Of a DNA stretch of 64,000 nt, positions 34,760 to 35,517 are shown one piece after another. Source of the DNA: Escherichia phage vB-Eco-KMB37. A program made the position numbers and the translations under genes. Each line of letters starts with the position of its first letter. The stretch's first letter is position 1. Below the pieces are notes generated by a model, which was not told the origin of the DNA, did not search any database, and saw only the letters and a program-made list of their open reading frames with translations. The DNA is taken from sequence record OR525700, one strand, 5' to 3'.

Positions 34760-35242
34760 ATGGAACAACAAAAAGATAATACTATTGCAAAATTTGCTCG
34801 TCCAGAAGTAATGGTTGAAATTGATCTGGATGAAGGACGCAGTGTAAAATTTAGAGTTCTCAAGTGGAGTCCAACTAAAGTTTTTGAAAGGATTCCAGAA
34901 CTAGGTAGTGTACTAGCTGTTCCTATGACAATGTATAATACTGCTCTTATGTCAGCAGACGAAGATCTAGAAGCTCGTATTGCTATGGCGCTGATCCAAT
35001 TATTCAGTGGTCTGGAAGAAAAAAACTTAGCCGCATTCTTACGTAAAATTTTAGATGAAGTTTACACAGAAGCAGGTCACAGTGTTTCCGATAATTTTGA
35101 TGAATTGTTTTTTGCTCACCCAGAATTAGTTGTTGACTTAGCTGCAAAAGTTCTTGAGGTGAACTATGCCCCTTTTTTCAAACGAGGTTTCGGAAAACTG
35201 TTGACCCAATTTCAAGGAATAGAGACTCTAGCGAAGAGTTAA
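34760..35242 (+). CDS. Tail assembly chaperone (gpG-like)
   Basis: 160 aa immediately upstream of tape measure; contains slippery heptamer near its 3' end. Confidence 0.6.
   Translation: MEQQKDNTIAKFARPEVMVEIDLDEGRSVKFRVLKWSPTKVFERIPELGSVLAVPMTMYNTALMSADEDLEARIAMALIQLFSGLEEKNLAAFLRKILDEVYTEAGHSVSDNFDELFFAHPELVVDLAAKVLEVNYAPFFKRGFGKLLTQFQGIETLAKS
35173..35179 (+). promoter_or_regulatory. Programmed -1 ribosomal frameshift slippery site (T TTT TTC)
   Basis: X_XXY_YYZ heptamer in the zero frame (P-F-F codons); the -1 frame is open from here to the stop at 35517. Confidence 0.6.
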
Positions 35243-35289
35243 GTCCGGCAATTAAATCAGCAATTGAAATTGCCTCACAAACCCTTAGC

Positions 35290-35517
35290 TTGACATGGTA
35301 TGAAGTAATTCTTTGTAAGGTAATTAAGAATACCTCCGAAACCTTGTCCTCGTTAGATAATTACGGTGTAGATTATCTACTTAAAATTTATGAATATTTA
35401 ACATTTGAAGACTATGTACAAGATCTTCACGTTAAAGATGCGGATATTAAACGTGGTCAACAGAGAACAATAAGAGAACTGGATACGGCTATGAAAAAAT
35501 TAATTCCAGATTCATAA
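35290..35517 (+). CDS. T-extension of the tail assembly chaperone (expressed as G-T fusion by -1 frameshift)
   Basis: ORF in the -1 frame relative to 34760..35242, open upstream back to the slippery site. Confidence 0.55.
   Translation: MTWYEVILCKVIKNTSETLSSLDNYGVDYLLKIYEYLTFEDYVQDLHVKDADIKRGQQRTIRELDTAMKKLIPDS

What the first reader, a model, noticed from the sequence alone, without database searches (positions are those of the whole stretch)
34760..35517. Programmed -1 frameshift site joining the two tail chaperone ORFs
The heptamer T TTT TTC (35173-35179) lies in the zero frame near the end of the 160-aa chaperone gene, and the -1 frame is open from there to 35517, predicting a fusion of about 250 aa. 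This is the conserved G/GT arrangement upstream of tape measure genes.
Basis: partly seen in the sequence, partly recalled or inferred. Interest (0 to 1): 0.45.

Follow-up and report, generated by a model that had tools for sequence, protein, structure and literature searches.

The report
Tail chaperone -1 frameshift site
This is the usual ribosomal "slip-back-one-base" signal that lets a phage make a short and a long version of its tail-assembly chaperone; it is strongly conserved in relatives but not marked in their public annotations, and it is an ordinary new example of a well-known mechanism.

Summary
The window is a phi92-like coliphage (Justusliebigvirus, 99.7% identical to phage VEcB). 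ORF 34760-35242 (160 aa) is a tail assembly chaperone (Pfam Phage_TAC_15, 80.8 bits). It lies between the tube gene and the tape measure gene. T TTT TTC (35173-35179) sits in the zero frame, and the -1 frame is open from 35158 to 35517, giving a 252-aa fusion.

In 37 non-identical relatives from two subfamilies (chaperone identity down to about 25%), the only three codon columns with an invariant third base are xxT TTT TTC. The -1 ORF is always open up to the tape measure gene. Its conserved coding begins at the slip site, 37 codons before any start codon, and no start codon there has a Shine-Dalgarno sequence.

Refinements:
- This clade has two overlapping heptamers, C CCT TTT TTC.
- No conserved downstream RNA structure was found.
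- An SD-like GAGG/GGAGG lies 13-14 nt upstream in 31 of 37 relatives and may act as a dnaX-type stimulator.

The closest proven case is P2 E/E+E' (T TTT TTG). None of 22 inspected GenBank/RefSeq records of relatives joins the two ORFs. Verdict: a new member of a known kind, of low interest. No expression data exist.

The parts
34760..35242 (+). Short tail assembly chaperone gene (G-like; phi92 gp132 equivalent), 160 aa, zero frame
   Evidence: ORF list and translation. Pfam Phage_TAC_15 at 80.8 bits against a cutoff of 22. PHROG 3840 'tail assembly chaperone', E 4.4e-54. RefSeq relatives name it tail assembly chaperone. The AF2 model (pLDDT 71) has weak top fold matches to HK97 TAC 2ob9 and YqbN 3klu.
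35173..35179 (+). Slippery heptamer T TTT TTC (X XXY YYZ in the zero frame); proposed site of tandem -1 slippage of two tRNA-Phe
   Evidence: Sequence. Invariant in 37 of 37 non-identical relatives. It supplies the only three codon columns (of 140) with an invariant third base. The T run is always exactly 6.
35170..35176 (+). Second, overlapping heptamer C CCT TTT. It is present in all 19 sequences that have Pro before the two Phe codons (the window, the named Stephanstirmvirinae records and related metagenomic contigs) and gives the same fusion protein
   Evidence: It is absent from Vequintavirinae, which have TGT, TCT or AGT before TTT TTC.
35156..35161 (+). Shine-Dalgarno-like GAGGTG, 13 nt upstream of the heptamer; candidate 5' stimulator (inferred)
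   Evidence: An SD-like stretch of at least 4 nt lies 13-14 nt upstream in 31 of 37 unique relatives. It is built from codons that are rare in this genome: GAG is 21% of Glu codons and GTG is 13% of Val codons.
35179..35517 (+). -1 frame extension (T-like part, 112 aa plus stop). Public records annotate only its 3' part, as the separate 'hypothetical protein' gp133
   Evidence: The -1 frame is open from 35158 to 35517. Conserved -1-frame amino-acid sequence runs from the slip site onward. The first canonical start is TTG 35290, and no start has an SD. PHROG 16039 and 10409, both of unknown function.
34720..34747 (+). Terminator-like hairpin plus T tract between the tube gene and the chaperone gene; probably attenuates transcription into the chaperone and tape measure genes
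   Evidence: Annotated as a terminator at the same place in phages PATM and phAPEC8.
34237..34716 (+). Tail tube gene (context)
   Evidence: PHROG 280 and Pfam KPP10_Orf10. Called 'potential tail tube' or 'tail tube protein' in relatives.
35537..37516 (+). Tape measure protein gene (context); TTG start preceded by GGAGG at 35525-35529
   Evidence: PHROG 16051, 1327 bits. SD check.

Best explanation

Most ribosomes translate 34760-35242 and release the 160-aa short chaperone. A minority behave differently. With tRNA-Phe on UUU in the P site and tRNA-Phe on UUC in the A site, both tRNAs slip back one base on U UUU UUC (35173-35179). In this clade the slip can alternatively occur one codon earlier, on C CCU UUU. 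These ribosomes then read CAA ACG AGG... to the stop at 35517 and make a 252-aa fusion: 140 residues shared with the short form plus 112 new ones.

By analogy with lambda G/GT and P2 E/E+E', the following is inferred, not shown. The shared N-terminal part coats the tape measure protein. The C-terminal extension recruits the tube subunit. The fixed slip frequency sets the ratio of short to long form. Neither protein ends up in the virion.

The signal appears to consist of the slippery run and probably an upstream SD-like GAGG(TG) 13 nt away that pairs with 16S rRNA, as in dnaX. No downstream hairpin or pseudoknot appears to be involved.
For: Shown by sequence:
- The heptamer register, the open -1 frame and the 252-aa fusion.
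- The gene is a tail assembly chaperone, placed between the tube and tape measure genes.

Shown by comparison:
- 16 of 17 relatives found by tblastn carry T TTT TTC inside the 0/-1 overlap. They come from two subfamilies, with chaperone identity down to 22-35%. Each has a 109-141-codon -1 ORF ending just before the tape measure gene, while the +1 frame is short.
- All 41 IMG/VR loci show the same arrangement.
- In a codon alignment of 37 unique sequences, the only invariant third positions among 140 columns are those of xxT TTT TTC. The preceding residue varies (Pro, Cys or Ser; four codon families) but always ends in T.
- As an internal control, another invariant Phe (F117) uses TTT in only 62% of sequences.
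- Relatives with 64-66% GC use TTT for only 10-17% of their Phe codons, yet keep TTT at this position.
- A distant Vibrio phage has a different heptamer, A AAT TTT, at nearly the same place.
- -1-frame amino-acid conservation (FFxxRFR, then ...LSPAIKSAIEIASQTLSLTWYEV...) starts at the slip site. That is 37 codons upstream of the first ATG, GTG or TTG.
- No start codon in the -1 ORF has an SD, whereas the tube, chaperone and tape measure genes each do.

From the literature:
- UUN A-site codons and all-pyrimidine heptamers are among the more shift-prone in E. coli (PMC4066793, section 17).
- P2 E/E+E' carries an annotated -1 frameshift at T TTT TTG in the same genomic position.
- A 2025 paper infers the same poly-T frameshift in the sister clades Vandenendeviridae and Andersonviridae (PMC12846349).
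Against: - There is no direct evidence: no protein, mass-spectrometry or reporter data for this phage group were found.
- No significant or conserved 3' stimulatory structure was found. Fold z-scores are -0.87 and +0.30, and alignment consensus energies are -0.87 and -2.96 kcal/mol with essentially no covariation. Efficiency may therefore be low and cannot be predicted.
- No relative with an in-frame G-T fusion gene was found that would independently prove the fused product.
- 22 of the 37 comparison sequences were retrieved with a peptide pattern that required Phe-Phe. Their amino acids are thus forced, though their codons are not.
- The sequences are phylogenetically related, so the counts are not independent events.
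- The SD-like element is absent from the phiTE/POP15 clade and from KP13-16 (6 of 37). It also overlaps conserved Glu-Val codons, so its role is unproven.
Confidence: 0.9

Rival explanations
1. Transcriptional slippage. RNA polymerase stutters on the T6 run and adds one U (or removes two), so a subset of mRNAs encodes the fusion in a single frame and no ribosomal slip is needed.
For: The site is a homopolymeric run of six T. Slippage at A or T runs is a known route to the same outcome in bacteria (review PMC5009743).
Against: - The run is exactly 6 in all 37 unique relatives and is never lengthened. Making the second Phe codon TTT would be synonymous in the zero frame, though in the -1 frame it would create a stop or change the next residue.
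- From general knowledge, efficient slippage by bacterial RNA polymerase needs runs of about 8-9 or more.
- The run always sits in the X XXY YYZ register.
- The Vibrio relative uses A AAT TTT, which is a ribosomal slip motif and not a homopolymer.
Confidence: 0.04
2. There are two independent genes. The downstream ORF (phi92 gp133) is translated from its own start (TTG 35290 or TTG 35344, as in public annotations), and the heptamer is incidental.
For: All 22 public annotations inspected list the two ORFs separately (or list only the chaperone), with no join. TTG codons exist at 35290 and 35344.
Against: - Annotators disagree on the start (35290 versus 35344).
- Neither TTG has an SD, whereas neighbouring genes do.
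- The conserved -1-frame protein sequence extends 37 codons upstream of the first possible start, back to the slip site.
- The -1 frame is kept open across the overlap in every relative.
- The synonymous positions of the heptamer are invariant, which independent initiation does not explain.
Confidence: 0.04
3. No recoding takes place. The open -1 frame and the T run are by-products of protein-level conservation of the chaperone's C-terminus (…NY-x-x-FF…) and of non-coding spacer DNA.
For: N135, Y136, F139 and F140 are conserved residues of the chaperone itself, so part of the nucleotide conservation is explained by the zero frame.
Against: - Protein conservation cannot fix third-codon positions, nor the third base of a variable residue.
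- A 119-codon open frame is very unlikely by chance in 38% GC DNA: -1-frame stops occur at 0.117 per codon and the longest other open run is 73 codons.
- That frame encodes a conserved domain recognised by PHROG 16039 at E 3e-45.
Confidence: 0.02

Closest known systems
Phage P2 gpE / gpE+E' (-1 frameshift at T TTT TTG; Peduoviridae myophage)
   Same: Contractile-tail phage. The gene order is sheath, tube, short chaperone ORF with an overlapping -1 ORF, then tape measure. The heptamer is nearly identical (T TTT TTG versus T TTT TTC) and sits in the same register close to the end of the short ORF. I verified this in NC_001895, where the frameshift is annotated.
   Different: P2 E is much smaller (91 aa; E+E' is 142 aa), and I did not test for sequence similarity. 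The last base of the heptamer differs, so the A-site tRNA is Leu in P2 and Phe here. The P2 frameshift is described as experimentally demonstrated; that rests on my own knowledge and on the review PMC5009743. The frameshift here is inferred.
Phage lambda gpG / gpGT (G GGA AAG) and the conserved tail-chaperone frameshift of long-tailed phages (Xu, Hendrix & Duda 2004)
   Same: Two overlapping ORFs lie between the major tail/tube gene and the tape measure gene. The second ORF lacks its own start. A slippery heptamer sits in the overlap. The long form is a minority product (summarised in PMC5009743).
Predicted -1 frameshift with an invariant GTTTTT motif in the TAC genes of Vandenendeviridae (Pakpunavirus) and Andersonviridae (PMC12846349, December 2025)
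   Same: These are sister clades of Stephanstirmvirinae and Vequintavirinae with related virion modules. [quoted passage not shown] Vequintavirinae here read G TTT TTT C, which matches that motif.
   Different: In the passages retrieved, that paper reports the chaperone-locus analysis only for Vandenendeviridae and Andersonviridae. In the window's clade the base before the T run is C, not G, which creates a second heptamer, C CCT TTT.
E. coli dnaX -1 frameshift (A AAA AAG with an upstream SD-like stimulator)
   Same: It has an internal SD-like sequence about 10-14 nt upstream of the slip site. Here GAGG/GGAGG lies 13-14 nt upstream in 31 of 37 relatives. Sharma et al. searched for such elements 6-17 nt upstream (PMC4066793).
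   Different: dnaX also has a strong 3' hairpin, and none is found here. The dnaX frameshift shortens the protein, whereas this one lengthens it. The role of the SD-like element here is untested.

Membership tests
Tail assembly chaperone with programmed frameshift (lambda G/GT, P2 E/E+E' type) | The upstream ORF belongs to a tail assembly chaperone protein family | tested here: met
   Pfam PF21822 Phage_TAC_15 at 80.8 bits against a cutoff of 22. PHROG 3840, 1613, 1688 and 11820, all named 'tail assembly chaperone'. All 45 database homologs carry PF21822.
Tail assembly chaperone with programmed frameshift (lambda G/GT, P2 E/E+E' type) | The ORF pair lies between the tube (major tail) gene and the tape measure gene, on the same strand | tested here: met
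   Sheath 32772-34178, tube 34237-34716, chaperone 34760-35242, -1 ORF ending at 35517, tape measure 35537-37516.
Tail assembly chaperone with programmed frameshift (lambda G/GT, P2 E/E+E' type) | A second ORF overlaps the 3' end of the first in the -1 frame, with a canonical X XXY YYZ heptamer in the overlap | tested here: met
   The overlap is 85 nt (35158-35242). It contains T TTT TTC at 35173-35179 and C CCT TTT at 35170-35176, both in the zero-frame register.
Tail assembly chaperone with programmed frameshift (lambda G/GT, P2 E/E+E' type) | The downstream ORF has no translation start of its own | tested here: met
   The first ATG, GTG or TTG in the -1 frame is TTG 35290. No candidate start has an SD. 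Conserved coding begins at 35179.
Tail assembly chaperone with programmed frameshift (lambda G/GT, P2 E/E+E' type) | The slip site and the two-frame arrangement are conserved in diverged relatives beyond what protein coding requires | tested here: met
   All 37 unique relatives keep xxT TTT TTC, and these are the only invariant third positions in 140 codon columns. The -1 ORF is open in all of them. A distant relative uses a different heptamer.
Tail assembly chaperone with programmed frameshift (lambda G/GT, P2 E/E+E' type) | Both a short and a long product are made in a fixed ratio, both are needed for tail assembly, and both are absent from virions | not testable with these tools
   This needs protein analysis and genetics. 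No such data were found for phi92-like or rV5-like phages in the searchable literature.
Tail assembly chaperone with programmed frameshift (lambda G/GT, P2 E/E+E' type) | The short protein has a TAC-like fold | tested here: inconclusive
   [not shown]
dnaX/IS-type -1 frameshift signals with stimulators | A stable 3' hairpin or pseudoknot 5-9 nt downstream of the heptamer | tested here: not met
   Fold z-scores are -0.87 (111 nt) and +0.30 (61 nt). RNAalifold consensus energies are -0.87 and -2.96 kcal/mol with no supported downstream helix. No Rfam family reaches its threshold. Pseudoknots were not searched for explicitly.
dnaX/IS-type -1 frameshift signals with stimulators | An SD-like sequence 6-17 nt upstream of the heptamer | tested here: met
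   GAGG lies at 35156-35159 with a 13-nt spacer. An SD-like stretch of at least 4 nt lies 13-14 nt upstream in 31 of 37 relatives. It uses codons that are rare in this genome. Its function is untested.

The most novel reading that the evidence does not exclude
The frameshift signal of this large group of myophages (Stephanstirmvirinae plus Vequintavirinae) may work without any 3' RNA structure. It would rely on a U-rich slip site plus a conserved internal Shine-Dalgarno-like element 13-14 nt upstream. In phi92-like phages the slip site is a doubled one, C CCU UUU UUC, which gives two chances to slip. This would make it a natural, purely 5'-stimulated -1 frameshift that sets tail-chaperone stoichiometry.
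Probability: 0.4. Interest if true: 0.35.

Novelty: new member of a known kind. Interest (0 to 1): 0.2.

Why it matters
The main value is for annotation. In all 22 GenBank/RefSeq records of relatives that I inspected, the long chaperone is missing. Its C-terminal part is instead listed as a short "hypothetical protein" with an arbitrary TTG start, or is not listed at all. The correct feature is join(34760..35179,35179..35517).

For recoding biology the site is a clean, deeply conserved natural U UUU UUC site in an E. coli phage. It has an apparent 5' SD-like element and no 3' structure, so it could be a convenient test case. It does not change what is known about tail assembly or frameshifting.

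Tried and rejected
- **Downstream stimulatory structure.** Single-sequence folds and two alignment folds found nothing significant or covarying. The small CGAAA...TTTCG hairpin that I saw by eye in Vequintavirinae starts 1 nt after the heptamer, too close to act as a stimulator. The conserved GGTTTCG shifts by one codon between the subfamilies, which suggests constraint from the two coding frames rather than from RNA structure.
- **Natural in-frame G-T fusion homolog ("Rosetta stone").** I searched 5.8 billion proteins with the 252-aa fusion. All 45 hits are 151-175-aa short chaperones and none is fused.
- **Other slip sites in the overlap.** An A_AAA tetramer at 35195-35198 is not conserved in relatives. 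AAACCCA occurs only in phage 05F01.
- **-2/+1 shift.** The +1 frame closes after a few codons.
- **Rfam.** Only sub-threshold matches were found.
- **PDB sequence search and NCBIfam.** Neither was informative for either part.
- **Literature.** I found no paper describing a frameshift in phi92, rV5, PVP-SE1 or phAPEC8. The rV5 genomics/proteomics paper does not contain the words frameshift, chaperone or tape measure. Vladimirov et al. 2022 (T4-like TACs) is not held in the library.
- **Structure of the T part or of the fusion.** I did not attempt this, because no deep alignment was available under the tool's input restrictions.

Full report
**What the window is.** The 3.3-kb stretch around the finding is 99.7% identical to Escherichia phage VEcB and phage alia. 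It is at least 99% identical to 35 phage records of the genus Justusliebigvirus (phi92-like myophages, subfamily Stephanstirmvirinae). The local gene order on the + strand is:
- tail sheath, 32772-34178
- tail tube, 34237-34716
- a 160-aa ORF, 34760-35242
- a short ORF ending at 35517
- the tape measure gene, 35537-37516

**Checking the observation.**
- The sequence reads ...GTG AAC TAT GCC CCT TTT TTC AAA CGA... in the frame of ORF 34760-35242. T TTT TTC at 35173-35179 is therefore in the canonical X XXY YYZ register.
- The -1 frame is open from 35158 to the stop codon ending at 35517, which gives an 85-nt overlap.
- One point was missed. C CCT TTT (35170-35176) is a second zero-frame heptamer that overlaps the first. 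The signal is really the decamer C CCT TTT TTC, and a slip at either position yields the same protein.

**Is it more than chance?**
- Taken alone, a heptamer is weak evidence. In-frame XXXYYYZ motifs occur at 0.0048 per codon in this window (88 in 18,491), so about 0.13 are expected in a 27-codon overlap.
- In-frame TTTTTTC occurs only twice in the window.
- The open -1 frame is unusual. Stops occur at 0.117 per codon in the -1 frame of the window's long ORFs, and the longest open run elsewhere is 73 codons, against 119 here. This comparison is imperfect, because most of the 119 codons lie beyond the G stop rather than inside an ORF.

**Identity of the proteins.**
- The 160-aa product matches Pfam Phage_TAC_15 (E 1.6e-22; 80.8 bits against a cutoff of 22) and four PHROG families that are all named tail assembly chaperone.
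- The -1 extension matches PHROGs 16039 and 10409, both of unknown function.
- I count the fold test as inconclusive and rely on the sequence-family match.

**Conservation, which is the decisive evidence.**
- A tblastn search with the short chaperone found 362 phage records. I read 17 diverse loci from it. These were six Stephanstirmvirinae records besides the window (phi92, Tr1, KP13-26, phAPEC8, 05F01, KP13-16), nine Vequintavirinae (rV5, Av-05, SalP219, FENT2, 4MG, POP15, phiTE, pEa_SNUABM_55, Kashira) and Vibrio phage S4-7.
- Sixteen of the 17 have T TTT TTC in the zero frame inside the overlap, a -1 ORF of 109-141 codons that ends just before the tape measure gene, and a +1 frame that is generally much shorter (6-52 codons).
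- The Vibrio phage has A AAT TTT a few codons upstream, with a 120-codon -1 ORF. The function is therefore kept there with a different heptamer.
- Forty-one further IMG/VR loci all show the same site. They were retrieved with a peptide pattern that forces Phe-Phe, so only their codon choice is informative.
- I built a codon alignment of the 37 non-identical sequences, with 140 columns. The mean frequency of the commonest third base is 0.49. The only columns with an invariant third base are the three codons of the heptamer.
- The residue before the two Phe codons is Pro, Cys or Ser (CCT, TGT, TCT, AGT; only 43% identical), yet it always ends in T.
- The two Phe codons are always TTT then TTC. 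As an internal control, another invariant Phe in the same gene (F117) is TTT in only 62% of sequences.
- Two relatives with 64-66% GC use TTT for only 10-17% of their Phe codons, yet keep TTT here. The T run is exactly six everywhere.

**The downstream ORF is not an independent gene.**
- Public records start it at TTG 35290 (phi92 gp133) or at TTG 35344 (VEcB), which shows there is no obvious start.
- No start codon in the -1 frame has a Shine-Dalgarno sequence, whereas the tube, chaperone and tape measure genes each do.
- The -1-frame translation is conserved from the slip site onward. It reads FF-x-x-RFR, then a variable linker, then ...LSPAIKSAIEIASQTLSLTWYEV.... This includes 37 codons that lie upstream of the first possible start.

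**Stimulatory elements.**
- Downstream folding is no better than for shuffled sequence (z -0.87 and +0.30).
- Alignment folds of both subfamilies give -0.87 and -2.96 kcal/mol, with no covarying helix downstream. Rfam finds nothing above threshold.
- Upstream, GAGG(TG) at 35156-35161 lies 13 nt from the heptamer. An SD-like stretch of at least 4 nt sits 13-14 nt upstream in 31 of 37 relatives.
- That element is built from codons that are rare in this genome: GAG is 21% of Glu codons and GTG is 13% of Val codons.
- This resembles the dnaX 5' stimulator and falls in the 6-17 nt window used by Sharma et al. (PMC4066793). It also overlaps conserved Glu-Val residues and is missing from the phiTE clade, so its role is a hypothesis.

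**Mechanism.**
- Inferred from the sequence anatomy and conservation: tandem -1 slippage of two tRNA-Phe on U UUU UUC, or of tRNA-Pro and tRNA-Phe on C CCU UUU, gives a minority 252-aa product beside the 160-aa one.
- Sharma et al. report that UUN A-site codons and all-pyrimidine heptamers are among the more shift-prone in E. coli.
- Inferred by analogy with lambda G/GT (review PMC5009743): the shared part binds the tape measure protein, the extension recruits the tube protein, and the slip frequency fixes their ratio.

**Comparison with what is known.**
- The closest proven case is P2 E/E+E'. I confirmed an annotated -1 frameshift at T TTT TTG between the tube gene FII and the tape measure gene T.
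- A December 2025 paper infers the same poly-T (GTTTTT) frameshift in the sister clades Vandenendeviridae and Andersonviridae. It notes the same mis-annotation of the downstream ORF (PMC12846349).
- I found no paper that describes the frameshift for phi92-, phAPEC8-, rV5- or PVP-SE1-like phages.
- None of the 22 annotated records of relatives that I inspected joins the ORFs.
- No homolog with an in-frame fusion exists among the 45 database relatives.

**Rivals.**
- Transcriptional slippage is unlikely. The run is short and never lengthened, and a relative uses a non-homopolymeric heptamer.
- Independent initiation and "no recoding" are contradicted by the missing start and SD, by the conserved coding upstream of any start, and by the invariant synonymous positions.

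**Verdict.** It is a routine, un-annotated member of the long-known tail-chaperone frameshift class. Novelty: a new member of a known kind. Interest: about 0.2.

Noticed in passing
window 34720-34747 (+): A terminator-like hairpin, AAAGGGCAGAAATGCCCTTT, followed by ATTTTT lies between the tube gene and the chaperone gene. The same place is annotated as a terminator in phages PATM and phAPEC8. It probably lowers expression of the chaperone and tape measure genes relative to the sheath and tube genes.
   Followed up: partly
window 34717-34842 (-): A sub-threshold Rfam match to the SraG sRNA (36 bits against a gathering score of 50; E 3e-4). It overlaps the terminator hairpin and the start of the chaperone gene, and is probably driven by the hairpin.
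   Followed up: no
GenBank MG065639, MG065645, MG065656, MG065689 and others (hits H7-H10, H23-H24): Records named 'Campylobacter phage' with host Campylobacter jejuni are 99.6-99.9% identical to this E. coli phi92-like phage. Others match rV5-like and phAPEC8-like coliphages. This suggests that the hosts are mis-assigned or that the lysates were contaminated.
   Followed up: no
L007 164-256 (phi92 NC_023693 66790-66882); equivalent to window ~33723-33815: The phi92 RefSeq record annotates a 'hypothetical tRNA' inside the tail sheath gene. ARAGORN finds no tRNA in the corresponding window region, so that feature is probably spurious.
   Followed up: yes
[not shown]
   Followed up: no
window 35180-35200 and homologous positions in relatives: GGTTTCG is conserved 6-9 nt after the heptamer in both subfamilies. 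It encodes Gly-Phe in the zero frame and Arg-Phe-Arg in the -1 frame. Its distance from the slip site differs by one codon between the subfamilies, so dual-coding constraint seems more likely than an RNA element, but this is not proven.
   Followed up: partly
PV659873.1 Escherichia phage WPEC1 (hit H76): This 161-kb record holds four separate places that match the chaperone region, two of them joined. This may be a duplication or an assembly artefact.
   Followed up: no
L014 1946-2757 (phiTE NC_020201): In phage phiTE the gene after the -1 ORF is not annotated as a tape measure. Instead there is a terminator, a 48-aa ORF and a protein similar to one from phage JSE, so local gene order differs in that clade.
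   Followed up: no
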